Assembly (NCBI GenBank): GCA_016935315.1
Contig: JAFGRD010000141.1
Span: forward strand, 12,616-76,615
Direction: 5' to 3'
Length of the DNA stretch: 64,000 nt
DNA from: Pirellulales bacterium
Lineage (GTDB): Bacteria; Planctomycetota; Planctomycetia; Pirellulales; Thermoguttaceae
Below the pieces are notes generated by a model. That model was not told the origin of the DNA. It worked only from the letters and a program-made list of their open reading frames with translations, and did not search any database. Made by a program: the position numbers and the translations under genes. Shown here piece after piece: positions 1-63,507 of the stretch (position 1 is the stretch's first letter; every line of letters starts with the position of its first letter).

Positions 1-2225
1 CCAAACTCCCCCCGAACGTAGAAATAGATGCGGCTGTCGTCGCGGCTCCACAGGGTGTGGTTGATGAAGAGGTCGCGGCCCTTGGTGTCCATCGTGCGCG
101 CCAGGTCGGCGAAGGAGACGAGCAGGCGCTTCTCGCCGGTGGCCATGTCCACGAGGAACACGCCGTCGTTGGCGGGCGCCGCCTCGGCCGAATTCCAGTC
201 GAAGGCGCCGGGATAGCCCGTAACCGGGCGAAGCCGCGCCAAACGTCCATAATTGACCCCGAGGAAATAACCGCCGCACTGGGCGACGCCGGAGTTGCCC
301 AAGGGCGTGTCGTCGAATCGGTATTCGCGGACACGCTTGCGGGCAACGACGTCGTAAACAACGGTGAAGATCTTGTGCGTCTCGGGGTCGCGGTCATTGA
401 AGATCAACTCCCGCGAGGCGGCCGCGGGATTCCAGTAGAACATCGTGCCCTGCTGAGAATTCCACGCACGCGACTCGTCGACCTTTTCGATGCGGTTGCC
501 GTTTTGCGTGTCGATGAGAACGACATCGGCCGGCTCGGCGGGATTCGGCATGCGGTCTTGAAATGAAGTACGCAGGGCGACGATGTAACGGCAATCCCCG
601 CTCCACGGGATGTTCTGCACGTGGCCGATGTAGCCGAAGAAGTGGTGGCTGGGGCCGTGCGTAAGCTGGCGGATTTGCACATGGAACTCGGCTGCCGCGG
701 CGGGAGGCCGACAGAACCGGGCTCCCGTTGGTCGCCCTCGCGCATTGACTGTGCAAGCGTCCATGGAGCCCTGCGCACGTTGCAGGCTGAGGGTTTTTGA
801 AAGGCGTTTGACCACGTCCGGGTGCCGTGCGGAGACGTCCTCGGTTTCGCCGAGGTCGTTTTGAAGGTTGTACAGTTGCGGTTTGAACTGATTCGCTCTG
901 GGGCCTTGATTTCCAGGGGGCTTCCTTCCGGGCCGTGCGAGTGGCACACCCTCGATCCATTTCCACGGCCCACTGCGGATGGCGTAAACGCCGTTGGCAC
1001 TCTGAAACAGCAGGTCTGTGCGCACCGGCTGGTCCGGCGTGCCGATGAAGGTGGACAAGACATTGACGCTGTCCGGCGCGGTGGTGGTGCGGTCGAGATG
1101 GGTTTCCCCGACTGCGGCCGCCACCGTCGCAAAGATGTCCACCACGCCGATCATCTGGTCGCTGGTGCTGCCGGCGGGGATTCTGTCGGGCCACCGCGCG
1201 ATGAACGGCACACGGAAACCGCCGTCCCACACGTCGTGTTTTCCGCCACGCAGCGCGCCGTTGATCTTCAGCCCGGCGTCCATGGCCTGCTTCTGCGTGT
1301 TGCTCTTGCTGCGCTCGGCGACCACGCCGCCGTTGTCGCTGGTGAAGATGACCAGCGTGTTCTCGACAGCCTCGATGTTCTCCAGCGCGCCCAGGATGCG
1401 GCCGACGCTGAGATCGAGGTCATGGATGAAATCACCGTAGGGGCCGGCTGGACTGGTGCCGCTGGTCCGTGCCGACGGCGTGACAAGTTCATGCACCGCC
1501 ACCGGAGCAAAGTAGAGAAAGAACGGCGCACTTTGCCCCTGCTGCTTCTCCAGCCACGCCACGGCGCGATCGGTCAGCTGTTCCATTGTCTTCGGGTCGT
1601 CGCGCTCGGGTGCATCGAGGCCGAGCTTGCCGGGGGACGGCGTGAGTTTATCCGACCGCAGGCCGAAGACCTTGTGATTCTCGACGAACACGCGCGTGAT
1701 GTCGTTGTGGTTTTGCGGCACGGCGAACTGATAGTCGAAACCGAGTTCCAACGGGCCTGGCTTCAGTTCCTTGGTATAATCCACGCGGCTTTCCGTCCCG
1801 TATCCGAGGTGCCACTTGCCCACCATCGCCGTGGCGTAGCCATGTTTCCCAAGCAGCGAGGCAATCGTCGGGCGGCTGGTCTCGATCAGCAGCGGGTCCA
1901 TTGTGTTCGCCACGCCGCCGTGATTCAGCCGGGTCCGCCAGCAGTAGCGGCCGGTCAACAGGGCATAACGCGTCGGCGTGCAGACCGACGACGGCGTGCT
2001 GGCGTCCGTGAACCGGCGGCCTTCGCGGGCAAGGCGGTCAAGGTTCGGCGTGCGGATGAGCCCCGGGGCCGCGCCGTAACAGCCGGCGCTGCCGTAGCCG
2101 TAGTCGTCGCTGAGGATGATCACAATGTTGGGCTTGGACGAGTCCGCAGTGGCAGGCGATGTCGCAGATCCGGCCCACACCGCGACGATCGCGAGACAAC
2201 TGGCGATTCGTAGAACGGTCTTCAT
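1..2225 (-). CDS. Sulfatase (N-terminal, formylglycine-dependent) continuing in frame, with no stop, through a repeat-element copy into a C-terminal beta-propeller region (TolB-like or oligogalacturonide-lyase-like). Partial: runs off the window start.
   Basis: Minus-strand ATG at 2225 overlaps the upstream stop (ATGA). Translation gives MKTVLRIASCLAIVAVWAGSATSPATADSSKPNIVIILSDDYGYGSAGCYG...SSVCTPTRYALLTGRY, i.e. a signal peptide and the CxPxR sulfatase signature. The frame is open for 741 codons to position 1. It is absent from the ORF track because no stop occurs inside the window. The C-terminal region reads ...LTHGPSHHFFGYIGHVQNIPWSGDCRYIVAL...LVDMATGEKRLLVSF.... Confidence 0.7.
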   Translation of the reverse strand, partial: MKTVLRIASCLAIVAVWAGSATSPATADSSKPNIVIILSDDYGYGSAGCYGAAPGLIRTPNLDRLAREGRRFTDASTPSSVCTPTRYALLTGRYCWRTRLNHGGVANTMDPLLIETSRPTIASLLGKHGYATAMVGKWHLGYGTESRVDYTKELKPGPLELGFDYQFAVPQNHNDITRVFVENHKVFGLRSDKLTPSPGKLGLDAPERDDPKTMEQLTDRAVAWLEKQQGQSAPFFLYFAPVAVHELVTPSARTSGTSPAGPYGDFIHDLDLSVGRILGALENIEAVENTLVIFTSDNGGVVAERSKSNTQKQAMDAGLKINGALRGGKHDVWDGGFRVPFIARWPDRIPAGSTSDQMIGVVDIFATVAAAVGETHLDRTTTAPDSVNVLSTFIGTPDQPVRTDLLFQSANGVYAIRSGPWKWIEGVPLARPGRKPPGNQGPRANQFKPQLYNLQNDLGETEDVSARHPDVVKRLSKTLSLQRAQGSMDACTVNARGRPTGARFCRPPAAAAEFHVQIRQLTHGPSHHFFGYIGHVQNIPWSGDCRYIVALRTSFQDRMPNPAEPADVVLIDTQNGNRIEKVDESRAWNSQQGTMFYWNPAAASRELIFNDRDPETHKIFTVVYDVVARKRVREYRFDDTPLGNSGVAQCGGYFLGVNYGRLARLRPVTGYPGAFDWNSAEAAPANDGVFLVDMATGEKRLLVSFADLARTMDTKGRDLFINHTLWSRDDSRIYFYVRGEF
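671..763 (-). mobile_element. MITE/REP-like interspersed element, copy A. Its 3' half has diverged. It lies in frame inside the sulfatase/propeller ORF.
   Basis: The plus strand carries the reverse complement of TTGACGCTTGCACAGTCAATGCGCGAGGGCGACCAACGGGAGCCCG...CCTCCCG shared with the copies at 5681, 29346, 31107, 35988, 46409 and 54424. A single base change makes ATGGACGC in place of ATTGACGC. Confidence 0.75.
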
Positions 2226-5680: not shown

Positions 5681-5730
5681 TATTGACGCTTGCACAATCA
5701 ATGCGCGAGGGCGATCACTTGAACGTCAAT
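5681..5730 (+). mobile_element. Truncated copy B of the MITE-like element (5' half only).
   Basis: tattgacgcttgcacaatcaatgcgcgagggcgatcac matches the 5' TIR and first hairpin of the element; the 3' half is missing. Confidence 0.6.
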
Positions 5731-8098: not shown

Positions 8099-9097
8099 AT
8101 GAGTCAGCACTTTCAGGTGTTAATCGCCGATTTTCTCAACGACGAGCTCGAGCCGGAGCGGCGTGTGCTTGAGGGTGTGGCCGACGTGGCGGCGCTGGGG
8201 GCCCGGAGCGAGGACGCCCTTCTCGGCCGTATCGACCGGGCCGACGCGATCATTCTCTACCACGAGGTGTCGCTCTCACGCAGGTCGATCGAGCGTCTGA
8301 AACGCTGCAAGCTGATCGTTCGCGGCGGCGTGGGAGTCGACAACGTCGACGGCCCGTTCGCCCGGACGCAAGGAATCCCTGTGGCCAACGTGCCCGACTA
8401 TGGGTCGGAAGAGGTGGCCGATTCGGCAATCGCCTTGGCGCTCTCGTTGGCGAGGGGGCTTCACTACGTCAACTCGCGCCTCAGGGCGGGGCAGGGGAAC
8501 TGGTCGTATCGGCAGGTCGTTCCGCTCGCCCGGTTGCGGGGGAGCACGTTCGGTGTCGTCGGCTTGGGACGCATCGGCACAGCCGTGGCCCTGCGGGCGA
8601 AGGCCTTGGGAATGGACGTGGCTTTCTACGACCCCTACAAGCCCGACGGCTACGACAAGGCCTTGGGAATCCGTCGCGTCGAGACGTTGGCCGAACTGCT
8701 GGACCGGTCGCTGATCGTCAGCCTGCACTGCCCGCTCACCGACGAGACGCGGCACTTGATCGACGCCGCGGCGATTGCCCGAATGCGCCGGGGCTCGTAC
8801 CTGGTCAACACGGCCCGGGGTGGCGTGGTCGACGTGGCGGCGCTGCCGGAGGCCTTGGCGTCGGGGCATCTGGGCGGCGCGGGCATCGACGTGCTGGAGC
8901 ACGAGCCCCCGCCCCAGGATCACCCGCTGCTGGTCGCCTGGCGAGACCCGAACCATCCGGCCCACCACCGGTTGATCCTCAACCCACACGTGGCCTTCTA
9001 CAGCGAAGCGGGACTGATGGACATCCGCTTGAAGACGGCCGAGGCCTGCCGGCGGGCGCTGGTCGGCTTGCCGCTGAGGAACGTGGTCAACGATTGA
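8099..9097 (+). CDS. D-isomer-specific 2-hydroxyacid dehydrogenase (CtBP/PGDH-like, NAD-binding).
   Basis: GVVGLGRIGTAVALRAKALGMDV Rossmann motif; ...LVNTARGGVVD...; the catalytic H/E/R pattern is typical of the D-2-HADH family. Confidence 0.85.
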   Translation: MSQHFQVLIADFLNDELEPERRVLEGVADVAALGARSEDALLGRIDRADAIILYHEVSLSRRSIERLKRCKLIVRGGVGVDNVDGPFARTQGIPVANVPDYGSEEVADSAIALALSLARGLHYVNSRLRAGQGNWSYRQVVPLARLRGSTFGVVGLGRIGTAVALRAKALGMDVAFYDPYKPDGYDKALGIRRVETLAELLDRSLIVSLHCPLTDETRHLIDAAAIARMRRGSYLVNTARGGVVDVAALPEALASGHLGGAGIDVLEHEPPPQDHPLLVAWRDPNHPAHHRLILNPHVAFYSEAGLMDIRLKTAEACRRALVGLPLRNVVND

Positions 9098-9121
9098 TGC
9101 CCAACTTCCATGGGCGAGCCG

Positions 9122-28022: not shown

Positions 28023-28985
28023 CTACCCGCCGTCGCCTTTCGCCTTCCCTTTGCCCTCGACGGCAGGCGGTTCGTATTCGAACTCCTTCCACACCATGGG
28101 GCGCCGCAGGTAGGGTTCGATCCGCAACACGACTTCGCCGCTCTGGAAGATCCGTACCGTGCCGTTGGTCTGGCTAACGGTAACGGCCACCGCATTGGTC
28201 GCCCGGCTGACGGCGGCGGCGGCCCAGTGGCGGGCCCCCAGCCCTTTCGAGAGCGTTACCTCGGCGGCCGAGCAGTCCAGGTATCGACAGGCCGCTTCCA
28301 CCGTGCCGTCGGCCGAGACGATGATCGCCCCATCCATCTGGGCGATCTCCTTAACGCCCTCCCGCACCCGGACGTCAGCCAGGGTCCGTTCCTTGCGGTT
28401 GTAGCCCTTAACCGGGTCGAAACCGGCTGGACGGCTGCAGGCCAGGACCTTTCGGGCGTCGCCGACGACGAACAGCGTGCCGACCGGCTTGCCCTCGCGA
28501 CCCTCGCGGCCGATCTCCACGGCCAGATCGACCACCATCTTCAGCGTATCCAGGGGCACGCGGGTCTCCAACTGCCGCAGATCGCGCCCGGTGAGCCGGT
28601 TGAGGTGTTCGTCGAGGCTGATCAGGCTGACCGAATCGAGTGAATCGGCGTCGAACCCGCTGTAAAGGGCCACCACGCACGCGCCCGGGGCCAAGAGATC
28701 GTCGGCCACCGCCTCCAGCACCGACTGGGTCAGCCGCTCGTAGATGGGGCTGCCCGGCATGTCGATCTCGACCGTCTCCAATCCGGCTTGCCTGGCGCCT
28801 TCGAGCTCGTCGGCCGCGCCGCCGGATACCAGCACTTTTTCGTCGCCACTGAGCTTCTTCAACCGCTGCCAATCGGCCGGCCCCTCCAGCAGCAAGAGAA
28901 TCACGTCGGCCCCGGCCGATTCCGTCAACCCGACCGCCAGATTGAAGAGGGTCTTGAATTGTTCGGTGAATCGTAACGGCTGCAT
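28023..28985 (-). CDS. Diadenylate cyclase (DisA_N / DAC domain; makes c-di-AMP) with an N-terminal regulatory domain.
   Basis: DAC core ...IAQMDGAIIVSADGTVEAACRYL...LGARHWAAAAVSRATNAVAVTVSQTNGTVRIF (DGA[IV]I and GxRHRAA-like motifs). Start at the internal ATG 28985. Confidence 0.75.
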   Translation of the reverse strand: MQPLRFTEQFKTLFNLAVGLTESAGADVILLLLEGPADWQRLKKLSGDEKVLVSGGAADELEGARQAGLETVEIDMPGSPIYERLTQSVLEAVADDLLAPGACVVALYSGFDADSLDSVSLISLDEHLNRLTGRDLRQLETRVPLDTLKMVVDLAVEIGREGREGKPVGTLFVVGDARKVLACSRPAGFDPVKGYNRKERTLADVRVREGVKEIAQMDGAIIVSADGTVEAACRYLDCSAAEVTLSKGLGARHWAAAAVSRATNAVAVTVSQTNGTVRIFQSGEVVLRIEPYLRRPMVWKEFEYEPPAVEGKGKAKGDGG

Positions 28986-29345
28986 CCGCGTTCGGCCTGT
29001 CGGTTGCCGGGTGTCCTCTTCAGGTTGATGGTGGCGGGGTTGAATGCCAGAACCGCGATGCAGTTTGTGCCAGCGCTTTCCCGCCGAGGCCGTGCGAGCA
29101 GCCCCCGATCCGTCTGAATGTGCTCGCGCGGCACTCACGCCGGAACCACCCCCTTCGGCAACGCGTCTGCCCCACTCGCGTAACAACCCACATATCCACT
29201 GTATATTACGGTTTTTTCCGTGCCAGAGCAACGCTAAATAACGCTGCGCGATGGTGGGAACTGGCCGGTTTCCGGGAGCCGCCTCCCGGAGGGTGGCAGC
29301 GGCGCTGGAGATTTCCCGAATCGTGCAGGCCTGTCCATTGGCGTT

Positions 29346-29449
29346 TGTACGGTCAATGCGCGAGGGCGACCAACGGGGGCCCGATTCTTCCGGGCCCCCG
29401 TTGGTCGGCCTTGATCATTCCCGATGCAGACATCAATAGAACATTTGTC
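29346..29449 (+). mobile_element. MITE-like element copy C, full length, closest to consensus.
   Basis: cattggcgtttgtacggtcaatgcgcgagggcgaccaacgggggcccgattcttccgggcccccgttggtcggccttgatcattcccgatgcagacatcaatag. The TCA of the 3' TIR, read on the other strand, is the TGA stop of the HEAT gene. Confidence 0.85.
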
Positions 29450-30137
29450 GCAGACGTTCGGCGATCGAAAGCGACCTGGCCGGCTCGGGCGTCTCGCCCC
29501 CAACATACTGTTGCCAGCGATTCACGTCGTTGCCGAGATCCTTGCCTGTGATCTGACGCAGGGATTTCATCGCCCGAACCTGCATCGCCGGATCCTCATC
29601 GCCGAGGACCTCCCCCAAGGCCGCCACGGCGGACGGGTCTTTCGACCGGCCCAGCGCTCGGGCGGCGGCCAACCGCACGTCGATATCGACGTCGCCACCC
29701 AGAGTTCTGCCCAACAGGGCGGCCGACTGCGGACCGTCACGTTTCCCCCACGCCTCGCAGGCGGTCATCCGTACCTCCGGGTCCAGGTCCTCCAGCGCGG
29801 CGCGCAGCACGTCCTCGGCCTGTTGGCAGCGATACGCGCCCAGAGTGCGGACAATCTCCGCCCGGATCAAAGGGTCGCCCTCGTTCTCGAATCCTTGGGC
29901 CAGCCGGGCTGCGACTTGTTGTTGCGAAGCAGAATCGCCGCTCGATCCCTTCTTCGCCAACTCCTTCAACTCGGCAATTCTTTCGCATGGAGCTTGCACC
30001 CCCTTTACCATGGGCTTCTTAGAGCTACCAAATAGACCCCAAGAGGGTGCCATGTCCATTTCGGCGCAACCCGCCAGCCAAAAGGCCAACAGCCAACCGA
30101 GCCAACCCCAACGCCGTGATCCGTTCGCGCTGTCCAT
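29433..30137 (-). CDS. HEAT-repeat (PBS-lyase-type) lipoprotein.
   Basis: Lipobox LAFWLAGCAE. Repeated ...EVRMTACEAWGK..., ...VDIDVRLAAARALGR..., ...DEDPAMQVRAMKSL... HEAT-like units. Confidence 0.65.
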   Translation of the reverse strand: MDSANGSRRWGWLGWLLAFWLAGCAEMDMAPSWGLFGSSKKPMVKGVQAPCERIAELKELAKKGSSGDSASQQQVAARLAQGFENEGDPLIRAEIVRTLGAYRCQQAEDVLRAALEDLDPEVRMTACEAWGKRDGPQSAALLGRTLGGDVDIDVRLAAARALGRSKDPSAVAALGEVLGDEDPAMQVRAMKSLRQITGKDLGNDVNRWQQYVGGETPEPARSLSIAERLRQMFY

Positions 30138-30538: not shown

Positions 30539-31048
30539 ATGCCCGAGCCACGAGACCATACCGAGGATCGTAACTGGATCGAAACCATCTTGCGGTATAT
30601 TCCCGGTTTTCGGGGCTACCTCGAGAAGGAATACCGCCGCGAAAGCGACGACCTGCAGCGGGACTGGCTGGCCGATCGCCTGCAGCGGTCGAAACGGGCG
30701 ATCGACGATTTGAGCCGGCCGTTGGCCGACGCGGGGCAGATCGACCTGTTGCCCCAGGTCGACCGGTTGCGTGGAAGGCTCGACAAGCTGATTGGGCGCA
30801 TCCGCGGCGCGATGCAAGGCTACAGCGGCTTTTTCGACCTGGTCCGGGTCCGCGAGGACCTGTTGGACCGCGTCTACGAGCACGACGTGGCGTTGATGAG
30901 GCAAGTCGACACCTTGGCCGAGGCCATCGAAGACCTGCCCAATCAGCAGGAACAACTCGTCGGCGCGCTCTCCGAACTGCTCCGCCAGACCGACGACCTG
31001 GACGACGCGTGGGACCAGCGTGAAGACATGCTCAAGGGGCTTCAATAG
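30539..31048 (+). CDS. Hypothetical coiled-coil protein.
   Basis: 169 aa, charged, with heptad-like pattern; directly upstream of the SPFH gene. Confidence 0.5.
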   Translation: MPEPRDHTEDRNWIETILRYIPGFRGYLEKEYRRESDDLQRDWLADRLQRSKRAIDDLSRPLADAGQIDLLPQVDRLRGRLDKLIGRIRGAMQGYSGFFDLVRVREDLLDRVYEHDVALMRQVDTLAEAIEDLPNQQEQLVGALSELLRQTDDLDDAWDQREDMLKGLQ

Positions 31049-31106: not shown

Positions 31107-31213
31107 TTATTGACGCTTGCACACTCAATGCGCGAGGGCGACTAACTTGGAGCCCGACTTGTCCGGCCTCCCATTGGTCGGCCTGGGTTATTCACAATGC
31201 GAACATCAGTAAG
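31107..31213 (+). mobile_element. MITE-like element copy D.
   Basis: ttattgacgcttgcacactcaatgcgcgagggcgactaacttggagcccgacttgtccggcctcccattggtcggcctgggttattcacaatgcgaacatcagtaag. Intergenic, between 31048 and 31305. Confidence 0.8.
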
Positions 31214-31304
31214 GCACAGGATCCCTCTCAGAATCACGCGACCCCATTTGGCTGGCGCATCCCATCGGTAATTCAATTCTCCAAGCAGACCAAAGGACCC
31301 CATC

Positions 31305-32696
31305 ATGGCCATCCGTTTGGAAGTCATCAAGTTTTTCGATGAGACGAACCGGTCGATCGTCCATCGCGAGCCGCCACAGGGCTCGGCCGACATCAAGCTC
31401 GGCGCCCAGTTGATCGTCCAGGAGAACCAGGAGGCGATCTTCTTCCGCGACGGCAAGGCGATGGACTCCTTCAGCCCCGGCCGGCATACGCTGACCACCC
31501 AGAACGTCCCGATCCTCACGCGCCTGCTGACGATCCCCTGGCAGGAATCTCCCTTCCAGGCCCAGGTCTACTTCATCGGGAAGCAGACGTTTCTCGACCA
31601 GAAATGGGGCACCCGGCAGCCGATCACCTTCCGCGACGCCGAGTTTGGCATGGTGCGGCTGCGGAGTTTCGGCAAATACTCCTTCCGCGTGATCGACAGC
31701 CCGCTGCTGTTGAACACGCTGGTGGGGACACAGGGCAAATACACTACCGATGAAATCAGCTCGTACCTGAAGGACCTGATCGTCTCCCGGCTGACCGACC
31801 TGCTGGGCACGTTGGGGACCAGCCTGCTGGACTTGCCGGCGAAGTACGACGAAGTGGCCGCCGGGACCCGGGCCAAAGTAAGCGAGGAGTTCGGCAAGTA
31901 CGGCCTCGAGCTGGTCGACTTCTTCATCAACGCGATCACCCCGCCCGAGGAAGTGCAAAAGGCCATCGACGCCCGAAGCGCCATGGGGGCGGTGGGCGAT
32001 CTGAACGCTTTCATGAAGTTCCAGGCCGCCAACAGCATGGCCAAGCTGGCCGAGCAGGGCGGCGGCGGGGCAGGGGCCGGCATGGGGGCCGGTGCCATGG
32101 GTATGGGTATGGGGGCCGGCTTCGGCATGATGATGCCCGGCATGATCCAACAGGCCATGGCCGGAGGCGCACATCCCGCCCCCGGCGCTCCCCGACCCGC
32201 GACCCCGGCGCCCGGCGCGGCCGCGGTCGCGGGCGCTGCGGCCGGCGCCGCTGCCGCGGGCCCCGACTTCGCCAACCTGGCCCCCGTCACCACCGACCCG
32301 AAAGCCATGGTCCGCTCCGTGGCCGGCGCGGCCGGCCACGCGATTGCCGAATCGGGCGACACCCTGCAGATTACAGTCCCCATCGGCGAACTGCGAAAAC
32401 AGCTGGTCACCGTCGAGTTCGGCAAGACCGACAAATCGGGCCATTCGATGGTCAACTACTGGTCGATCTGTGGTCCGGTGACCGAGCAAAACGCCATGAA
32501 CCTGTTGCGCTACAACACCGAGATGGTCCACGGTGCCTTCGCCGCCAGGAATATCGGCGGCACCGAGATGCTGGTCATCCAGGCCAACCAAATGGCCGAA
32601 ATGCTCGACCCTCTGGAAGTCAGCCGCGTGCTCTCGGCGGTCGCCTGGCAGGCCGACCAAGTGGAGCAGAAGCTGGTCGGCAGCGACGAGTACTGA
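31305..32696 (+). CDS. SPFH/band-7 domain protein fused through a Gly/Ala/Met-rich linker to a C-terminal YbjN-like (T3SS-chaperone-fold) domain.
   Basis: N-terminus [51 protein letters not shown] (COG4260-type SPFH). Linker [30 protein letters not shown]-terminus ...[47 protein letters not shown].... Confidence 0.65.
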
Positions 32697-32697
32697 C

Positions 32698-33042
32698 ATG
32701 GACGAGACGAACCCTTATCGGTCGCCGAGGTACGGCGGTTACGCGTCCGCCGGCGACCGTTTTGATCGCACACCGGCAGAGCGCGCGGGGGGATACCGTC
32801 CGGCGATCTGCTGGGCGGTCGTGCAACAGGCCGTGATCCTGGGTTTTACCGGCCTGCTGCTGGACGGTGGGGCCACGTTTCGGCTATTCCTGTTGCCCGC
32901 CATCGGGTTCTGGCCGATCGTCTTGATGTTTGTGCTCCGGCGTCCCGAGTCGCCCACCCGCACGGATCTCGACTTCGTGAAGTTGGGCTATTGGCTGATC
33001 GCGGCACCGCTGGTGTTCGTGCGGGTGCTGGGCATCGCCTGA
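32698..33042 (+). CDS. Small membrane protein (114 aa), translationally coupled to the SPFH gene.
   Basis: MDETNPYRSPRYGGY..., three TM helices; the start abuts the upstream stop. Confidence 0.5.
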   Translation: MDETNPYRSPRYGGYASAGDRFDRTPAERAGGYRPAICWAVVQQAVILGFTGLLLDGGATFRLFLLPAIGFWPIVLMFVLRRPESPTRTDLDFVKLGYWLIAAPLVFVRVLGIA

Positions 33043-35987: not shown

Positions 35988-36091
35988 CTGATTGGCGTTT
36001 GCACAGTCGATGCGCGAGGGTGACCAACAAGAGCCCGATTCTTCCGGCCTCCCGTTGGTCGGCCTTGATCACCAGCACTGCAGACATCAAT
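35988..36091 (+). mobile_element. MITE-like element copy E.
   Basis: gattggcgtttgcacagtcgatgcgcgagggtgaccaacaagagcccgattcttccggcctcccgttggtcggccttgatcaccagcactgcagacatcaatag. Intergenic, between 35851 and 36227. Confidence 0.8.
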
Positions 36092-37552: not shown

Positions 37553-37646
37553 ACGACGTTCGACACAAGGGAAACGTTATGGGTAGCAAGGCGTCTGCGC
37601 CGCCTTTACGCCCATAAGAATGCCCAAACTGTTCTTCTGCGAGTAC

Positions 37647-43281: not shown

Positions 43282-46200
43282 ATGAAAGCCGCCTTCTGGT
43301 CGTGGGTCCTCTGGTGCGCCGTCGCTCCCCAGGTGCAAACATCCCAGACGCCCGAAACCCTGCTCTATATCCGCACCACGCCCTCCGGGGCCGAAATCTC
43401 CCTGGACGGCAAGCCGCTGGGCACGTCCGACGGGCTGTTTCCAGTCAAGCCGGGAACCTACAAGATCGTCGTCGACTTGCAGGACCACCAGCCCAAGCAG
43501 CAAAGCATCACTCTCCGCGACGGGCAAATCACGCGGATCGAGTTGGAATTGCAGGCCACAGCCGGACGGCGCCGCGCGACGGCGCGCCCGCTGATTCCAC
43601 GGCCTGCCTTCGGCCGCTTCGACGTTCGCCTCGAGCTGCGGGTCGCCCCGGCAGCGCCCGGATGCGAGTTCGCCACACTTGCCAAGGAACACGTCGCCCG
43701 GTACCGGAAGGACCTCCAAACAAAGGGGCCGCTTGCCGGCCGCGTGCCCGAGGCGCTTTACGCCTGGTTCGAGCTGCGGGTCGAGCCGTCGCCGGAACTG
43801 ATCACCGCCGAGTATCAGGGGGCGACCTACGTCCTGCTGTCGAACCGCCCCGACGAGGTCATGCTGGCCTCGCGCGACGGTGCCGACGCCTGGGGACTGA
43901 CGTCGGTCGACGTGACGGCCGACGGTCGCGGAGCGCCGGCCATCGGCGCAGAGATGGACGAGGCCGGCGCGAGGCTTCTGGCGGCCTTGAGCGGGTCGCA
44001 CCTCGGCCAGCGCGTGGCGATACTGCTGTGCGACCAGGTACTGGCAGCGCCGGTCGTCCGCGGCAAGATCTCCGAGAGGATTGCGATCACCGGACAGTTC
44101 GAGCGCCGCGAGGTCGAAGAGCTGGTCGCGGCGTTGAGGGCCAGCCTGGCCCGGCCCGGCGCCGGTGCGCCGACCGCCACAGTCGAGAGCCGCGTGTTGG
44201 CCGACGCCTGTGCCCAAATGTTGGGCGACTTTGTCGCTGCGCGGAAGCAGGCCGGCGGCAAGATCCCCGACGATTGGGATTCTCCGCAGTTCGTTCCCCG
44301 AACGATCGAGCAGTGTAAGCGGCAGTATCCCGGCCCGTTTGCCGTGACGCCGGAAGAGGAACGCCGGTTCACCGCGGGCGAGTTTGATGACGCGGCTGCT
44401 TCGCGACGCGCCGGCGAGGCCATCCAATCGTTGACCAAGGACAAGGTCGAGTTGCCCGCCGGAGCCCAGTACCTCATCGACGAATTCCAGACGGGAAGGC
44501 TCCAAGGGGCCCGGCTGGAACTGGCCGCGCGGTTACTTGCGGCACAGCTCCAGGACACCGCTCAAATGCAGCACCGCTCTGTCCAGACGGCCCTCAAGCT
44601 CCTTGAGACCTCCTTGGCGTGCTATCAGCTCGACCTGGGAGTGTATCCGACGACTGACGAGGGCTTGGCCGCGCTGACCAGCAAGCCGGCCACCGCCGGG
44701 ACCCAAGAGAAATGGCAAGGTCCCTATGCCAGCGAGTTGCCCCGAGATCCTTGGGGCCACGACTATCGATACCGCCGGCCCGGCAAGCACCAGCCGGATT
44801 CGTTCGACCTCTGGTCGGTCGGCCCGGACGGCCTCGACGGCACGGCGGACGACGTGGGCAATTGGCCCGAGCACGACGATGCCGCGGACGACAACCGGCC
44901 GGCCGACCCGAACCGCCGCCCGCGATACTTCGTGCGTCTGGTGTTGGGCGACGACACCATGACCTTGGAAGGTGCCACGACCACGTGGGAGGAGTTGCCC
45001 GAGTTGCTGGAGCGAGTCCCCAACCGCGGACAGACCGTGTTGGAGATTGCGGTCGCGGCGGAGAAGCCAAGCGACAAGCAGCGTGCCGACGCGATGCGTC
45101 GGGCCAGCGGCCTGGCCCGGCGTTTCGGGTTTGAATACCCCAGTATCGTCGGTGTGCATCCCCTGGGGTCAAGGGGGGCGCCGCCCCAGACCGACTCCCC
45201 CAAAGCGGCCCCAGCGCCGGAGACGTCGGACGGAGCGGCCAAGGAGGTCTTGCGGCGCTACAGCCAGGCCGTTTGGGCCGAGGCATTGCCCCGGCTCGAA
45301 TCCGCGTCGGGGCCCGAGGCCACGGAGATGATCCAACAGGTCGCCATGGAGGCGGCGCAGCGCCACATTCTACCGCAGAAAGACCTCGTTGCCCGATACG
45401 CCCTGAGTCGAATGCCCGACGCCGAGCCGGTCGATGCTTCGCAATGGACGGAGAAAGTGGTGTTCCGCCCCGAGGACGATGCGGCCGATTCCCCGCGGCA
45501 ACCGACGGCCTTCTGGCATCCGATCGTGGTGGCAGCCGGACTGCAGCAACAGGTGATGGTCAAGGACATGTCGGCGAAGCGTTTCGGCACGTTTGCCATG
45601 TCGCGCTTCTACGCCCCTGCGCCGACCACCGTCTTGGATCGCAACCTGGACCATCCGGTGATCGCGACGGCCTTCGGCGACCAGTTGCTGGTGGCTCATC
45701 TGCGCCGGGCCGACGACGGTCTTTACCACGGCGAGCAGGTCCGCTGGCTGACAAAGCGGCCCGCGGCCACGCAGGATTACTTCCTGCTGCCGGTCGGCGC
45801 CACGCCGGCGCAGCGGCTCGTTCACACCTTCAGCAAGATCGTCTGGAACGACTTGCTGCCACGGTTGGCCGGGCAGGAGCCGGAAGTCCTCGCAAAGGAA
45901 TTGGGGAGGTTTTCCCGTCGCTTTTTCGTCAAACACCACGAGCTGCTGAAGGCCGAAGGCGAGCGGCTCCTGGCCGAATTGCCGAAGTCGGAACCCATCG
46001 ACTTCTCGCAATGGACATCCCGCTTCCCGGAAACCACCGACGAAATGTCTGAGGCGATGCGGCACGCGATGGCCTCGGAGCGGGCTGATATCGGTATCGG
46101 CGATGTGCACCTGTGCTTCAACCCGGTCCAGATGGCGGCCATGATGCAGCAAACCACGCTGGCCAGGCTGGCCGGCCCGGGAATGCTCGGGCTGCGTTCG

Positions 46201-46410
46201 ATGGTGCGGGCGGCGGCCGTGTATCCCTTGGACGCGATCCTCGACGGCGATCCCCAACGGCCCGCCATTGCCACACGGATGGGCGACGAGCTGTCCATCG
46301 TCCGCTTGCGTCGCCAGCCCAACGGTGCCTACGAATTCGACCGGATTGAGTGGCTGGTCCGTGCGAAGGCCGATTCGAAAGCGACTAAGGCGGCGCCCCG
46401 TCGCAAGTGA
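43282..46410 (+). CDS. Large secreted chimeric protein: N-terminal PEGA domain, SecD-P1-head-like domain, internal GspG (T2SS pseudopilin)-like domain, ExbD/TolR-like domain, and a C-terminal region of unknown function.
   Basis: PEGA: LLYIRTTPSGAEISLDGKPLGTSDGLFPVKPGTYKIVV. SecD-like: ...QRVAILLCDQVLAAPVVRGKISERIAITGQFERREVEELVAALRA. GspG-like: ...YQLDLGVYPTTDEGLAALTSKP...WQGPYASELPRDPWGHDYRYRRPGKHQPDSFDLWSVGPDGLDGTADDVGNW. ExbD-like: ...YFVRLVLGDDTMTLEGATTTWEELPELLERVPNRGQTVLEIA.... Confidence 0.7.
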   Translation: MKAAFWSWVLWCAVAPQVQTSQTPETLLYIRTTPSGAEISLDGKPLGTSDGLFPVKPGTYKIVVDLQDHQPKQQSITLRDGQITRIELELQATAGRRRATARPLIPRPAFGRFDVRLELRVAPAAPGCEFATLAKEHVARYRKDLQTKGPLAGRVPEALYAWFELRVEPSPELITAEYQGATYVLLSNRPDEVMLASRDGADAWGLTSVDVTADGRGAPAIGAEMDEAGARLLAALSGSHLGQRVAILLCDQVLAAPVVRGKISERIAITGQFERREVEELVAALRASLARPGAGAPTATVESRVLADACAQMLGDFVAARKQAGGKIPDDWDSPQFVPRTIEQCKRQYPGPFAVTPEEERRFTAGEFDDAAASRRAGEAIQSLTKDKVELPAGAQYLIDEFQTGRLQGARLELAARLLAAQLQDTAQMQHRSVQTALKLLETSLACYQLDLGVYPTTDEGLAALTSKPATAGTQEKWQGPYASELPRDPWGHDYRYRRPGKHQPDSFDLWSVGPDGLDGTADDVGNWPEHDDAADDNRPADPNRRPRYFVRLVLGDDTMTLEGATTTWEELPELLERVPNRGQTVLEIAVAAEKPSDKQRADAMRRASGLARRFGFEYPSIVGVHPLGSRGAPPQTDSPKAAPAPETSDGAAKEVLRRYSQAVWAEALPRLESASGPEATEMIQQVAMEAAQRHILPQKDLVARYALSRMPDAEPVDASQWTEKVVFRPEDDAADSPRQPTAFWHPIVVAAGLQQQVMVKDMSAKRFGTFAMSRFYAPAPTTVLDRNLDHPVIATAFGDQLLVAHLRRADDGLYHGEQVRWLTKRPAATQDYFLLPVGATPAQRLVHTFSKIVWNDLLPRLAGQEPEVLAKELGRFSRRFFVKHHELLKAEGERLLAELPKSEPIDFSQWTSRFPETTDEMSEAMRHAMASERADIGIGDVHLCFNPVQMAAMMQQTTLARLAGPGMLGLRSMVRAAAVYPLDAILDGDPQRPAIATRMGDELSIVRLRRQPNGAYEFDRIEWLVRAKADSKATKAAPRRK

Positions 46411-46509
46411 TGTCCGCATTGCGAATGATCCAGGCCGGCCCACGGGAGGCCGGGAAAGTCGGGCTCCCGTGGGTCGCCGTCGCGCATTGACGGTGCCCAC
46501 GTCAATAAG
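46409..46509 (-). mobile_element. MITE-like element copy F (reverse orientation).
   Basis: The plus strand carries gtgatgtccgcattgcgaatgatccaggccggcccacgggaggccgggaaagtcgggctcccgtgggtcgccgtcgcgcattgacggtgcccacgtcaataag. The TGA stop of the 43282..46410 gene lies inside the element terminus. The element sits between convergent genes. Confidence 0.8.
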
Positions 46510-52358: not shown

Positions 52359-54428
52359 ATGATGCCACGCAGTAGCCTGCTTCCTCTCCTGCTTTCGGCC
52401 ATCCTCTCAGCCGCGGCGTTCTCTCGCCCGAGTGCCGTTGCCGACGACGCGCGCGAATCCGGGGCGTTTACGCTCCATACCCGCAGCCGGCCGGAGATGA
52501 ACAAGGGAACGTTCCATTTCCCGCTGGTCTACCAGACCGTGCAGTGGGACCCGCGGAAGACGGCCGTGGTGATCTGCGACATGTGGGACCAGCACTGGTG
52601 CAAGTCGGCGACCGCGCGGGTGGCCGAGATGGCGCCGCGGATGAACGCTCTGATCTCGGTGGCTCGCGAGCAGGGCGCGCTGATCGTCCATTGCCCCAGC
52701 GGCACGCTCGATTTCTACAAGGACACGCCCGGCCGAAAGCTGGCCCGGCAGGCCCCTGCGGTCGAGCCGAGGGTGCCGCTGCAGGGCTGGTGCTCCCTGG
52801 ATGTGCAGCGCGAGGGCCAGCGTCTGCCGATCGACGATTCCGACGGCGGCTGCCCCTGCCAACCGCCGTGCCCCGGCGGACACCCGTGGACCCGTCAGAT
52901 CGCAACGATCGAGATCAAGCCGGGCGACGCGATCACCGACAACGCCGAGGCTTATTACCTGATGCAGCAGCGCGGCATCGAGAACGTGATCGTGATGGGC
53001 GTGCATACCAACATGTGCGTGCTGGGCCGGCCGTTCTCCATCCGCCAGATGGTCTACCAGGGCAAGAACGTCGTGCTGGTCCGCGACCTGACCGACAGTA
53101 TGTACAACCCCCGCCGCGAACCGTTCGTCAGCCACTTCCGCGGCACGGAGATGGTCGTCGAGCACATCGAGAAGTACTGGTGCCCCACGATCACCAGCAG
53201 CGATTTCCTGGGCGGGCCGGCCTTCCGGTTCCGCGAGGACACGCGGGCGCACGTCGTCTTGCTGGCCAACGAGGACGAGTATGGGGCCAGGCAGACGCTG
53301 CCGGATTTCGCCCAACTGCTGCGAGACTGCTTCGGCTATCGCTGCACGGTGATCCAGGGATACGCCCCGCACGATCTGTCGGGCATCGAGGCCCTCGAAT
53401 CGGCCGACGTGGCGGTGCTGTTCGTGCGTCGCCGGGCCTTGCCGCAGCAGCAAATGGCCGTGCTGCGGAAGTACCTGGAGGCCGGCAAGCCGCTGGTGGC
53501 GCTGCGGACCGCGTGCCACGCCTTCGACGTCCGCGGCGACGCCCCGGCCGGCTCGCAGCAATGGCCGGCGTTCGACCGCGAGGTGCTCGGCTGCAACTAC
53601 CGTGGGCACGGCCCGAACCAGTTGGGCACCGACGTGGCGTTGGTGCCGGAGATGGCCGATCACCCGATTCTCTCCGGCGTCAAGCCGGCGCAGTGGCACA
53701 GCCCCGGCTCGATCTACCTGGTCAGGCCGGTCGACGAGGAGGCCGAGGTGCTGGCGGTCGGCACGGCGTTGAATCTGACCGAGCCGATCGCTTGGGCCCG
53801 CCGCTACCGGGGCGGCCGCGTATTCTACACGTCGCTGGGACACCGCAGCGACTTCATGCAGCCGCAGTTTCGGGTGCTGTTGATCAACGCCGTGCACTGG
53901 GCGATGGGCCGGCCGGTGCCGCCGCTACCGGGCGACGCCTCGCCCGACTTCTCCGCCGGGTGGCACACCCTGGCCGTGCCCGGCACCTGGGACGCCCGCT
54001 CCGGCGGTTACCTGATCGGCTACGACGGCTACGCCTGGTACCGTTGCCTGGTCACCGTGCCCGAGGCCTGGCGCGACAACGACCTCACACTTTCGGTGCC
54101 CGAGGTGGATAATTGCCACGAGGTGTTTTTCAACGGCTTGAAGGTCGGTTCCGCCGGCTCGATGCCGCCGGACTACGTCAACGGGCTCGGCAGCGAGAAG
54201 CCTTGCACGGTGCCGGCGTCGCGCGTGCGTTCTGGGCAAAAGAACCTCGTGGCACTGCGCGTCTACGACCACGACGGCCGTGGCGGCTTCAAAGGCAAGG
54301 CCCCGAGTCTCGGCTTCGGCCAGCAGGTCATTTCCCTGGAAGGCAAGTGGCAATTTCGCACGGGCGACGACGCGAGGTGGGCGCAGCCCGACGAAGAGAC
54401 ACCGCCCGCGGAGGCATTTTCCTATTGA
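52359..54428 (+). CDS. Secreted three-domain protein: isochorismatase-like cysteine hydrolase, ThuA-like (class-I glutamine-amidotransferase fold), and a GH2-type sugar-binding beta-sandwich.
   Basis: Signal MMPRSSLLPLLLSAILSAAAFS. AVVICDMWDQHW...VIVMGVHTNMCVLG (isochorismatase). ...GGRVFYTSLGHRSDF... (ThuA). ...LTLSVPEVDNCHEVFFNGLKVGS... (GH2 N-terminal-like). Confidence 0.7.
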   Translation: MMPRSSLLPLLLSAILSAAAFSRPSAVADDARESGAFTLHTRSRPEMNKGTFHFPLVYQTVQWDPRKTAVVICDMWDQHWCKSATARVAEMAPRMNALISVAREQGALIVHCPSGTLDFYKDTPGRKLARQAPAVEPRVPLQGWCSLDVQREGQRLPIDDSDGGCPCQPPCPGGHPWTRQIATIEIKPGDAITDNAEAYYLMQQRGIENVIVMGVHTNMCVLGRPFSIRQMVYQGKNVVLVRDLTDSMYNPRREPFVSHFRGTEMVVEHIEKYWCPTITSSDFLGGPAFRFREDTRAHVVLLANEDEYGARQTLPDFAQLLRDCFGYRCTVIQGYAPHDLSGIEALESADVAVLFVRRRALPQQQMAVLRKYLEAGKPLVALRTACHAFDVRGDAPAGSQQWPAFDREVLGCNYRGHGPNQLGTDVALVPEMADHPILSGVKPAQWHSPGSIYLVRPVDEEAEVLAVGTALNLTEPIAWARRYRGGRVFYTSLGHRSDFMQPQFRVLLINAVHWAMGRPVPPLPGDASPDFSAGWHTLAVPGTWDARSGGYLIGYDGYAWYRCLVTVPEAWRDNDLTLSVPEVDNCHEVFFNGLKVGSAGSMPPDYVNGLGSEKPCTVPASRVRSGQKNLVALRVYDHDGRGGFKGKAPSLGFGQQVISLEGKWQFRTGDDARWAQPDEETPPAEAFSY

Positions 54429-54526
54429 CGCTTGCACACTCAATGCGCGAGGGCGGCCAATGCGAGCCCGACTTGTCCGGCCTCCCGTTGGTCGGCCTGG
54501 GTCATTCACAATGCAAGCATCAATAG
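54424..54526 (+). mobile_element. MITE-like element copy G.
   Basis: tattgacgcttgcacactcaatgcgcgagggcggccaatgcgagcccgacttgtccggcctcccgttggtcggcctgggtcattcacaatgcaagcatcaatag. The TGA within the 5' TIR is the stop of the upstream gene. The element sits between convergent genes. Confidence 0.85.
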
Positions 54527-63441: not shown

Positions 63442-63446
63442 ACAGT

Positions 63447-63471
63447 AGCCAGGCGTCTGCGACGCCTGGCT
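63447..63471. terminator. Perfect 11-bp-stem hairpin between convergent genes, a candidate bidirectional intrinsic terminator.
   Basis: AGCCAGGCGTC tgc GACGCCTGGCT. It starts 5 bp after the 63441 stop and lies before the hslU stop at 63508. No U-tract follows. Confidence 0.5.
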
Positions 63472-63507
63472 GCCCGGGAGAATGCCCGGCTTGTTCTTCC
63501 GCAAGTC

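What the first reader, a model, noticed from the sequence alone, without database searches (positions are those of the whole stretch)
54424..54526. Element termini supply the stop codons of adjacent genes (TTGA / TCAA in the TIRs)
In copy G, the TGA inside the 5' TIR (tat TGA cgc) is the stop of the 52359..54428 gene. In copy F (46409-46509), the TGA stop of the 1042-aa gene is the reverse complement of the TCA in the 3' terminus (GACATCA). In copy C, the same TCA of CATCAATAG is the TGA stop of the HEAT lipoprotein gene (29433) on the opposite strand. Three of six full copies therefore overlap a stop codon by exactly their terminal TTGA/TCAA. This suggests target preference for, or selection at, stop-codon-proximal TGA/TCA sites, as in some MITE and Correia-like elements. 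It also implies insertion can remodel C-termini.
Basis: seen in the sequence. Interest (0 to 1): 0.65.

Follow-up and report, generated by a model that had tools for sequence, protein, structure and literature searches.

The report
Mobile repeat landing in stop codons
A 99-base mobile repeat in a Pirellulales (planctomycete) genome inserts at TA dinucleotides, often the TA of a gene's TAG or TAA stop codon, and its own first bases (TTGA) rebuild a stop at once, so the host protein gains only one tyrosine; this is a new example of a known kind of element, not a new mechanism.

Summary
Three real genes end in a TGA that lies inside the terminus of a ~100-nt palindromic repeat: ThuA-like 52362..54428 (+), HEAT lipoprotein 29433..30137 (-), and T2SS-like 43282..46410 (+). 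The window has 5 full copies and 2 truncated ones, not six full.

TTGA and TCAA are reverse complements, so they are the terminal inverted repeat, not a target duplication. Every copy is flanked Y-TA|TTGAYG...CRTCAA|TA-R, which fits a TA duplication in a YTAR target.

Removing the element plus one TA restores an in-frame TAG or TAA exactly where the TA sits. Orthologues without the element support this:
- 107 of 119 HEAT orthologues end in ...F. Five element-free loci, carrying four different orthologous proteins, read TTY TAG or TTC TAA. The window protein ends ...FY.
- The closest ThuA orthologue ends GCA TTT CCG TAG, against GCA TTT TCC TA|T TGA in the window.

So the element landed in the old stop codon and its TTGA gave TAT-TGA, adding one Tyr.

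Stop codons make up about 40-50% of the tolerated YTAR sites, so 3 of 5 copies at stops needs no extra selection.

This is an undescribed TA-duplicating MITE family. Its transposase is unidentified.

The parts
54425..54523 (+). Copy G, element proper (99 nt, TTGACGC...GCATCAA). It is an imperfect palindrome folding into one long hairpin.
   Evidence: Repeat family D1/D2/D4, alignment, nhmmer E=9e-31. RNA fold -50.8 kcal/mol, z=-4.85.
54423..54428 (+). Junction TA|TTGA read as TAT TGA. The added Tyr codon is 54423-54425. The new stop of the ThuA-like gene is 54426-54428.
   Evidence: The closest orthologue (L099) ends GCA TTT CCG TAG with no element.
54524..54526 (+). Second TA copy plus G. This is the displaced relic of the ancestral TAG stop, now 99 nt downstream of the first TA.
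   Evidence: Direct reading of the sequence. TA-R follows CRTCAA in nearly all copies.
52362..54428 (+). Isochorismatase/ThuA-family gene (688 aa as annotated in NCBI). Its last codon and its stop come from the insertion junction.
   Evidence: Pfam. P0001 is 100% identical over 688 aa. C-terminal alignment.
29338..29436 (+). Copy C, element proper (99 nt). Its 3' terminus faces the HEAT gene.
   Evidence: RNA fold -55.2 kcal/mol, z=-7.1.
29433..29438 (-). On the minus strand this reads TAT TGA. The added Tyr codon is 29436-29438 and the new stop of the HEAT lipoprotein gene is 29433-29435.
   Evidence: 107 of 119 orthologues end in F, against FY here. Five element-free loci carrying four different orthologous proteins read TTY TAG or TTC TAA.
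29433..30137 (-). HEAT-repeat lipoprotein gene, followed on the minus strand by a DacZ-type diadenylate cyclase gene (28023..29231).
   Evidence: Pfam HEAT_2 5e-24 and DacZ_P/DAC. The same HEAT-then-DacZ gene order occurs in the orthologous loci.
46407..46505 (-). Copy F, the most diverged full copy (99 nt, collinear with C, E and G). It almost fills the spacer between two convergent genes. The reconstructed pre-insertion spacer is only 8 nt.
   Evidence: RNA fold -57.4 kcal/mol.
46405..46410 (+). AAG TGA at the end of the 1042-aa T2SS-like gene. It aligns without gaps to the consensus TAT TGA with 2 substitutions. TGA is 46408-46410.
   Evidence: There is no orthologue with a comparable C-terminus, so the ancestral state is inferred only.
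43282..46410 (+). PEGA/SecDF_P1_head/T2SSG-domain gene whose stop lies in copy F.
   Evidence: Pfam. P0241 is 100% identical.
31110..31209 (+). Copy D. It is intergenic between two + strand genes (30539..31048 and 31305..32696), flanked TTA|...|TAA. It touches no real stop codon.
35992..36090 (+). Copy E. It is intergenic, upstream of a TAT-signal GFO/IDH/MocA oxidoreductase gene, flanked TGA|...|TAG. It touches no real stop codon.
   Evidence: (TAT signal at residues 95-113 of the long ORF).
700..767 (-). Copy A, truncated (5' arm and loop only, with a degenerate terminus CATGGAC). It lies inside an open frame that runs from a sulfatase gene into the next gene without a stop.
5681..5718 (+). 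Copy B, truncated to the first 38 nt (TA|TTGACGC...). Its internal TCAATG supplies the last codons and the TGA (5698-5700, minus strand) of a truncated PRiA4_ORF3-like gene fragment.

Best explanation
The repeat is a non-autonomous DNA transposon (a MITE): 99 nt, palindromic over its whole length, with termini 5'-TTGAYG...CRTCAA-3'. A transposase acting in trans, not identified here, inserts it at a TA dinucleotide within a YTAR context and duplicates the TA.

TAG and TAA stop codons preceded by a pyrimidine are themselves YTAR sites. When the element lands in one, the upstream TA copy is followed by the element's TTGA. The gene then reads TAT TGA: one extra C-terminal tyrosine, then a new stop. 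The old third base (G or A) ends up behind the second TA, 99 nt downstream. The protein is barely changed, so such insertions survive. Insertions in coding sequence do not survive. In this compact, 65% G+C genome, stop codons therefore make up a large share of the sites where the element can persist. That is why 3 of 5 full copies overlap a stop.

Shown here: the element's anatomy, its hairpin, the Y-TA/TA-R flanks, the TAT-TGA register, and the ancestral TAG/TAA for the HEAT gene (copy C). The ancestral TAG for the ThuA-like gene (copy G) rests on one orthologue and is supported rather than shown.

Inferred: the transposase family, the ancestral state at copy F, and any effect of placing the stop codon at the base of a hairpin of about -50 kcal/mol in the mRNA.
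For: 1. Anatomy. Five full and two partial copies share one architecture. Each folds into a single long hairpin of -38 to -57 kcal/mol, z -3.2 to -7.1. The consensus structure has 33 pairs, 6 of them with compensatory changes, including the terminal pair in L096 (TTACTGAC...CTCAGTAG).

2. Mobility. Related copies sit in unrelated flanks in a Thermoguttaceae MAG (L052) and in metagenome loci (L091-L098; five distinct metagenome sites, plus one shared with L052). Two copies about 97% identical have different flanks in one metagenome (L095, L098).

3. Flanks. All copies read Y-TA|TTGAYG...CRTCAA|TA-R. No longer direct repeat is present.

4. Empty sites for copy C. 107 of 119 HEAT orthologues end ...F, and the window protein ends ...FY. 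Five element-free loci with the same gene order (L101, L105, L106, L107, L108), carrying four different orthologous proteins, read TTC TAG, TTT TAG, TTC TAG and TTC TAA (L107 and L108 carry the same protein), against the window's TTC TA|T TGA.

5. Empty site for copy G. The closest orthologue (68% identity, L099) ends GCA TTT CCG TAG with no element, against the window's GCA TTT TCC TA|T TGA.

6. An independent fourth case. In L094 a 429-codon PQQ beta-propeller gene ends GAC TAT TGA at the element's 3' terminus.

7. Numbers. In 3.8 kb of short spacers there are 75 TA and 11 YTAR sites. Nine present stops plus three reconstructed ones lie in YTAR context. The expected share of insertions at stops is about 0.41-0.52, giving P(>=3 of 5) of 0.34-0.54.
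Against: - No autonomous element with these termini was found, and no transposase gene was seen among the window ORFs scanned. The transposase family and the cut-and-paste chemistry are therefore assumed.
- The Y and R next to the TA are so constant that they could be element bases rather than a target preference.
- The copy G test rests on one orthologue at 68% identity, with a 2-residue indel near the end.
- Copy F has AAG TGA, not TAT TGA, and no orthologue is available to test it.
- Only about 12 independent copies were available, so the genome-wide statistics are thin.
Confidence: 0.8

Rival explanations
1. The element targets TGA/TCA (TTGA) sites at or near stop codons. The ancestral stop was already TGA, and TTGA is a target-site duplication.
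For: TTGA or TCAA sits at every junction, and three genes stop there.
Against: TTGA and TCAA are inverted relative to each other, not direct repeats, so they are the inverted-repeat termini. Orthologous empty sites carry TAG or TAA one codon upstream, with no TGA at that position. The window proteins carry one extra Tyr relative to their orthologues: 107 of 119 HEAT orthologues end in F.
Confidence: 0.04
2. The hairpins are host-selected 3'-end modules, such as terminators, mRNA stabilisers or translation-termination modulators. Selection keeps them abutting ORF ends, and their position is not a by-product of insertion-site choice.
For: The hairpin is very stable and conserved, with compensatory changes. 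Copies F and G lie between convergent genes, and copy C lies between two genes in tandem. Hairpin repeats close to stop codons are reported to affect expression in other bacteria (discussed in PMC5896051).
Against: No U-tract or terminator-like match is present at copy G, the only copy scanned. There is no Rfam family match. Either element end can face the gene: G uses the 5' end, while C, F and L094 use the 3' end. Copies D and E, and most metagenome copies, are not at gene ends, and some lie upstream of genes. The exact one-codon register is explained by TA insertion without invoking any function. This idea is compatible with the main explanation as a secondary effect.
Confidence: 0.1
3. The element is mobilised as single-stranded DNA by an IS200/IS605-type or RAYT-type (Y1/HUH) enzyme. 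It inserts 3' of a fixed short motif without any duplication. The TA...TA would then be part of the element or of the target motif.
For: The element is strongly palindromic. Its right end finishes in TCAA and its left flank is often TTA/TTAT or TTAC. From memory, this recalls IS608, with a TTAC target and a TCAA right-end cleavage site.
Against: The two termini are true inverted repeats of each other over the whole element, with co-varying terminal bases, as in elements moved by DDE transposases. Ends of the IS200/IS605 family are not inverted repeats. The left flank varies (CTAT, CCAT, TGAT, CTGT, TTAC). Without a TA duplication, the reconstructed HEAT and ThuA genes would lack a stop codon, contrary to what the orthologues show.
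Confidence: 0.04
4. Coincidence. The repeats merely lie in short spacers, and the TGA overlaps are accidental.
For: Spacers are short and only five full copies exist in the window.
Against: The same register occurs at four independent genes: C, F, G and L094. Random placement gives P of about 3.5e-5. The orthologues' stops fall exactly on the duplicated TA.
Confidence: 0.02

Closest known systems
RUP (repeat unit of pneumococcus), a 107-bp MITE thought to be mobilised by IS630-Spn1 (PMC2229807)
   Same: About 100 bp, with terminal inverted repeats, insertion at TA-containing targets, non-coding, dispersed and mostly intergenic.
   Different: There is no sequence relationship. RUP's link to a transposase rests on inverted-repeat similarity to a known IS, and no such partner was found here. 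RUP is described as having stops in all six frames and as targeting IS elements. It is not described as landing in host stop codons.
IS630 and IS870 (IS630 family): insertion into the TA of 5'-CTAG-3'. IS870 uses the target's TAG as the stop codon of its own ORF (Tenzen & Ohtsubo 1991, cited in PMC6811581; Fournier et al. 1993, cited in PMC13630536).
   Same: TA duplication within a CTAG/YTAR target. There is an interplay between the target's TAG and translation termination. The two best-supported sites here reconstruct to CTAG.
   Different: IS870 borrows the target's stop for its own transposase. Here the element gives a stop back to the host gene whose stop it split. Membership of the IS630 family is not shown.
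Coxiella burnetii QMITE1 and QMITE2 (PMC5896051)
   Same: MITEs whose copies overlap the 3' ends of functional genes by 1-50 bp, altering C-terminal residues without much change in protein length. They form stable stem structures.
   Different: The QMITE overlaps vary in length. [quoted passage not shown] Here the overlap is always the same 4 nt, and it is explained by TA-in-stop-codon insertion plus a TTGA terminus.
Correia/NEMIS elements of Neisseria (PMC2229807)
   Same: Elements of 100-155 bp with inverted-repeat ends, forming a hairpin when transcribed. One size class is found fused to ORFs. From memory, they have TA flanks.
   Different: The sequence is unrelated and the host is AT-richer. 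Correia termini do not regenerate a stop immediately. The IHF site and RNase III processing known for Correia were not tested here.
MITEPsy1 of Pseudomonas syringae, IS5-like (PMC3189936)
   Same: 100 nt long, with a target of CTAG or YTAA, essentially the same YTAR consensus.
   Different: MITEPsy1 duplicates all 4 nt. Here only TA is repeated: the flanks are YTA|...|TAR, not YTAR|...|YTAR.

Membership tests
MITE (non-autonomous transposon with terminal inverted repeats) | Small size (<~300 bp) and no coding capacity | tested here: met
   The element proper is 99-100 nt in all full copies. No ORF is confined to it.
MITE (non-autonomous transposon with terminal inverted repeats) | Terminal inverted repeats | tested here: met
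   5'-TTGAYGC... and ...GCRTCAA-3' are reverse complements. The whole element is an imperfect palindrome (I9, 47, 65).
MITE (non-autonomous transposon with terminal inverted repeats) | Multiple dispersed copies in unrelated flanks, present or absent at orthologous sites | tested here: met
   Seven copies in the window, plus copies in L052 and L091-L098 with different flanks. The orthologous HEAT and ThuA sites lack it.
MITE (non-autonomous transposon with terminal inverted repeats) | Target-site duplication | tested here: met
   TA is present on both sides in most copies. Removing the element plus one TA reproduces the TAG/TAA seen in the orthologues. TA is palindromic and always present, so this rests on the empty-site comparison.
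MITE (non-autonomous transposon with terminal inverted repeats) | A cognate autonomous element with the same termini that encodes the transposase | tested here: inconclusive
   None was found in the window or in the fetched loci. L091 has two element pieces 1.7 kb apart, but the ORFs between them were read by eye only, not scanned against any protein-family library, and the two pieces are a truncated 5' end and a complete separate copy, not the two ends of one element. The rest of the genome could not be searched.
IS630/Tc1-mariner-derived MITE | 2-bp TA duplication, with a preference for CTAG/NTAN targets | tested here: met
   The flanks are Y-TA...TA-R in all copies. Sites C and G reconstruct to CTAG, F and L094 to CTAA, D to TTAA and E to TTAG.
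IS630/Tc1-mariner-derived MITE | Termini similar to those of an IS630-family IS, and a DDE transposase of that family in the genome | not testable with these tools
   There is no IS reference library or whole-genome access.
IS5-family-derived MITE (MITEPsy1 type) | 4-bp duplication of the YTAR target | tested here: not met
   The base after the left TA is the invariant T of TTGA, and the base before the right TA is the A of TCAA. No copy has YTAR on both sides. From memory, some IS5 subgroups duplicate only 2-3 bp; that was not tested.
REP / RAYT-associated palindromes | 20-40 bp GC-rich palindrome with a GTAG or CGTC head (PMC3733652) | tested here: not met
   The element is 99 nt and has no GTAG or CGTC head. 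A separate GTAG-headed palindrome does occur twice elsewhere in the window.
IS200/IS605-derived palindrome-associated elements | Non-identical ends with subterminal hairpins, insertion 3' of a fixed tetra- or pentanucleotide, and no duplication | tested here: not met
   The ends are inverted repeats of each other, the left flank varies, and the empty-site reconstructions require a TA duplication.
Any curated RNA family (Rfam 15) | Match at or above the family's gathering score | tested here: not met
   There were no matches over the whole window. The only sub-threshold match was a chance miRNA-precursor hit, E=0.35.

The most novel reading that the evidence does not exclude
The TTGA terminus is not an accident but an adaptation. 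On this reading, the MITE family is specialised to colonise TAG/TAA stop codons, the most reliable harmless TA sites in a compact, GC-rich genome that uses TAG heavily. It heals each stop with its own TGA. As side effects it drives TAG/TAA-to-TGA stop-codon turnover, tags proteins with a C-terminal Tyr, and places each new stop at the foot of a hairpin of about -50 kcal/mol that could tune termination or mRNA 3'-end stability.

A weak hint comes from the variant sub-family in L092/L096 (TA|CTGAC ... CTCAG|TA). It has changed both termini in step yet still reads TAC TGA.
Probability: 0.15. Interest if true: 0.6.

Novelty: new member of a known kind. Interest (0 to 1): 0.35.

Why it matters
- It gives a concrete, checkable reason why small mobile repeats so often overlap the last few bases of bacterial genes. 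For Coxiella MITEs this pattern was noted and called unexplained (PMC5896051). The reason proposed here is that the target motif contains a stop codon and the element's first bases rebuild one.
- It is useful for annotation. Genes ending ...TAT TGA followed by this repeat have a one-residue artefactual extension and a swapped stop codon.
- It adds a repeat family for Pirellulales/Thermoguttaceae. No description of it turned up in the full-text searches run here (and the reviews checked).
- It is not a new mechanism of transposition or of gene regulation.

Tried and rejected
Only L052 held a real copy; the rest were chance matches.
- Two viral-contig scans with longer element patterns found nothing.
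- A homologue search for the copy F gene returned no protein sharing its C-terminal region, so F's ancestral stop could not be tested.
- Extending the window along its 111-kb contig failed. One look-up returned only a 4.9-kb Logan contig lying inside the window, and the other protein was not on record.
- Exact look-up of the L094 protein, with and without the terminal Tyr and with two candidate starts, found nothing.
- L091 was examined as a possible autonomous parent because two element pieces lie 1.7 kb apart. They turned out to be a truncated copy and a separate full copy. The ORFs between them were read by eye only and were not scanned against any protein-family library.
- A 3-nt deletion model for copy F was rejected in favour of two substitutions. 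F is collinear with the other copies at 99 nt, and only the substitution model gives a YTAR target (CTAA).
- Copy D's overlap with ORF 31206..32699 (-) was rejected as a fourth case, because that ORF is the antisense of a Band7 gene.
- The intrinsic-terminator scan at copy G found no match in the element, and Rfam had no family match.
Full report
**Observation.**
- Copy G: the + strand reads ...GCA TTT TCC TAT TGA CGC..., with TGA at 54426-54428.
- Copy C: the minus strand reads ...CAA ATG TTC TAT TGA TGT..., with TGA being the reverse complement of 29433-29435.
- Copy F: the + strand reads ...CGT CGC AAG TGA TGT CCG..., with TGA at 46408-46410.

The three ORFs are genuine genes. They show the codon-position G+C pattern of coding sequence in this 65% G+C window. 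They carry Pfam domains: Isochorismatase+ThuA, HEAT_2, and PEGA+SecDF_P1_head+T2SSG. They are identical to proteins annotated on a 111,288-nt contig of an NCBI Pirellulales MAG (P0001, P0121, P0241).

The copy count needs correcting. A profile search finds five full copies (C, D, E, F, G) and two truncated ones (A 700-764, B 5681-5717). Copy D's terminal TCA also closes a long ORF, but that ORF is the antisense shadow of the Band7 gene 31305..32696.

**What the repeat is.** Each full copy is 99-100 nt. It is an imperfect palindrome from end to end, with termini 5'-TTGAYGC...GCRTCAA-3'.
- As a single strand it folds into one long hairpin of -38 to -57 kcal/mol, z-scores -3.2 to -7.1.
- Across 11 copies the consensus fold has 33 pairs, 6 of them with compensatory double changes. 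One is the near-terminal pair in L096 (TTACTGAC...CTCAGTAG).
- It matches no Rfam family, and copy G, the only copy scanned, has no terminator-like T-run.
- Related copies occur in a Thermoguttaceae MAG (L052) and in metagenome contigs (L091-L098), in unrelated flanks. Two copies about 97% identical have different flanks in one metagenome.

It therefore behaves as a mobile, non-coding element with inverted-repeat ends, that is, a MITE.

**Junctions.** In every copy the element is bracketed as Y-TA|TTGAYG...CRTCAA|TA-R. No longer direct repeat is present. TTGA on the left and TCAA on the right are reverse complements, so they belong to the inverted repeat and cannot be a target duplication. The only direct repeat is TA. 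This gives a specific prediction: delete the element and one TA, and the pre-insertion site appears.
- G gives TTT TCC TAG GCG.
- C gives ATG TTC TAG ACA.
- L094, a fourth and independent case in a 429-codon PQQ-propeller gene, gives TCG GAC TAA GGG.
- F, aligned without gaps, gives CGT CGC TAA GAT.

In each case an in-frame TAG or TAA falls exactly on the TA, in a CTAR context. Because the neighbouring Y and R are nearly invariant, this outcome is partly built in. It needed an outside test.

**Outside test with orthologues.**
- HEAT lipoprotein (copy C). The family has a conserved C-terminus...SIAERLR(Q/R)(M/L)F. Of 119 homologues, 107 end in F, and the window protein ends ...RLRQMFY. Five element-free loci that keep the same HEAT-then-DacZ gene order, carrying four different orthologous proteins (L107 and L108 carry the same one), read ATT TTC TAG (L101), ATG TTT TAG (L105), CCG TTC TAG (L106) and ATG TTC TAA (L107, L108). 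The window reads ATG TTC TA|T TGA.
- ThuA-like gene (copy G). The only close full-length orthologue (P0002, 68% identity) ends ...CCC GCA TTT CCG TAG with no element downstream. The window reads ...GAG GCA TTT TCC TA|T TGA. More distant orthologues have unalignable tails.
- F gene. No homologue shares the C-terminal region, so its history is inferred only. The no-gap alignment (TAT to AAG, two substitutions in the most diverged copy) is preferred over a 3-nt deletion. It keeps F at the family length of 99 nt and gives a CTAA target.

The ancestral stops were therefore TAG or TAA one codon upstream of the present TGA. The proteins gained a single tyrosine.

**Is the stop-codon association more than chance?** Against random placement in spacers of about 131 nt, yes: P is about 3.5e-5 for 3 of 5. 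Against the element's own site preference, no.
- The 3.8 kb of confidently non-coding short spacers hold 75 TA but only 11 YTAR sites.
- Nine present stop codons plus the three reconstructed ones lie in YTAR context. TAG is the commonest stop here (19 TAG, 15 TGA, 5 TAA among 39 called genes).
- Stops are thus about 41-52% of the YTAR sites outside coding sequence. Seeing 3 of 5 copies at stops in the window, or 4 of about 12 counting the extra loci, is unremarkable (P 0.34-0.95).
- With TA alone as the target, the expected share would be 19-26% (P 0.05-0.12 for the window).

No selection for stop-proximal position needs to be invoked beyond the removal of insertions that damage genes. Copy F makes the point. 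Its reconstructed spacer between two convergent genes was only 8 nt, so the stop codons held the only TA available.

**Mechanism.** The best-supported account has four steps.
- Step 1 (inferred): a transposase supplied in trans recognises the inverted-repeat ends and integrates at TA in YTAR, duplicating the TA.
- Step 2 (shown for C; supported for G; consistent for F and L094): when that TA is the first two bases of a stop codon, the junction TA+TTGA reads TAT TGA.
- Step 3 (shown): the displaced G or A remains after the second TA, for example TAG at 54524-54526.
- Step 4 (inferred): the near-silent outcome lets such copies persist.

A consequence worth testing is that the new stop sits within the first base pairs of a very stable mRNA hairpin. 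Authors of a Coxiella MITE study raised similar ideas about translational effects and RNase III processing (PMC5896051). Nothing here tests this.

**Other copies.**
- D and E are intergenic and touch no stop.
- B is a 38-nt stump fused to a truncated PRiA4_ORF3-like fragment. Its internal TCAATG, read on the minus strand, supplies ...VIALAH and the TGA of that fragment.
- A is a 65-nt stump with a degenerate terminus. It lies in a frame that stays open from a sulfatase gene (Pfam domains end near residue 508) through the stump into the next gene. These two show the messier outcomes of decay and deletion.

**Comparison with known systems.** The element works like the TA-duplicating MITEs and their parents.
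- RUP/IS630-Spn1 targets TA (PMC2229807).
- IS630 inserts at the TA of CTAG (reference 19 of PMC6811581).
- IS870 inserts at CTAG and uses the target's TAG as the stop of its own ORF (PMC13630536, reference 31).
- MITEPsy1 shares the CTAG/YTAA consensus but duplicates 4 nt (PMC3189936). That is not seen here.
- Overlap of MITEs with the last 1-50 bp of genes has been catalogued in Coxiella, where the authors called the reason unknown (PMC5896051).
- A 2024 review of prokaryotic MITEs does not contain the term 'stop codon'.

Membership of the IS630 family cannot be claimed. The TA/CTAG signature is met, but no cognate transposase or matching IS termini could be sought. REP/RAYT and IS200/IS605-type elements were considered, and their defining features were not met.

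**Verdict.** The thing itself is an undescribed member of a familiar class. The tidy TA+TTGA = Tyr-stop arithmetic is a useful explanatory detail, and possibly an adaptation of the element (about 15% likely). It is not a new kind of system.

**Limits.** Only about 12 independent copies were available. There was one orthologue for G and none for F. No transposase was identified.

Noticed in passing
window 1-2303 (minus strand), element stump at 700-767: No stop codon separates a sulfatase gene (Pfam domains end near residue 508) from the next gene. The frame runs through truncated copy A, which has a degenerate terminus CATGGAC. Coding-type GC3 is found on both sides (0.78 and 0.83). This could be a gene fusion, a lost stop, or an assembly or frameshift artefact.
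   Followed up: partly
window 5681-5979: Truncated copy B (38 nt) is joined to a fragment of a PRiA4_ORF3-like gene (profile positions 40-108 of 173). Read on the minus strand, the stump supplies the last residues ...VIALAH and the TGA stop (5698-5700). This looks like a deletion scar.
   Followed up: partly
L100 1339-1351 (protein P0146): One HEAT orthologue ends ATG TTC TAC TGA (...MFY) with no element downstream. This is the same Tyr-stop reading that the variant terminus TA|CTGA would give. It could be an excision or deletion scar, or simply a TAG-to-TAC mutation running into a nearby TGA.
   Followed up: no
L101 2561-2577: In the closest HEAT orthologue the TAG stop is followed by TACTGATGACC. 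This matches 8 of 10 bases of the element terminus TATTGATGTC. It may be a remnant of an old insertion or a chance match.
   Followed up: no
window 9092-9121: Gene 8099..9097 (+) ends AAC GAT TGA TGC C, which shares ATTGATGC with the element terminus. It sits in a 24-nt spacer between convergent genes. No further similarity to the element is present, so this is a possible solo-terminus relic or a chance match.
   Followed up: no
window 37583-37653 and 63445-63515: A second, unrelated 71-nt repeat (73% identity) occurs twice. It begins with a GTAG-headed GC-rich palindrome (GTAGCNAGGCGTCTGCGNCGCCT) of the REP type. Both copies lie between convergent genes and overlap the TAG stop of the minus-strand gene. 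The two minus-strand proteins are not homologous.
   Followed up: partly
window 49203-50012 (+): This ORF has a signal-peptide-like start followed by tandem cysteine-rich repeats (CC-E/K-P-A/T-CC...; DNA repeat families D3, D5, D6 and D18). It has no Pfam match.
   Followed up: no
window, all called genes: TAG is the most frequent stop codon (19 TAG, 15 TGA, 5 TAA among 39 called genes) despite 65% G+C. Three of the TGA stops were created by the element. Heavy use of TAG enlarges the pool of YTAR stop-codon targets.
   Followed up: partly
L091 443-510: A truncated copy of the element is followed directly by a different small palindrome, TAGGGTGCGTGAAACGCACC...GGTGCGTTTCACGCACCCTA. This may be another short mobile repeat nested in or abutting the first.
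   Followed up: no
L099 38-121: There is a weak, degenerate match to the element (nhmmer E=0.002) upstream of the ThuA orthologue whose stop codon is unoccupied. This suggests that lineage has also carried the family.
   Followed up: no
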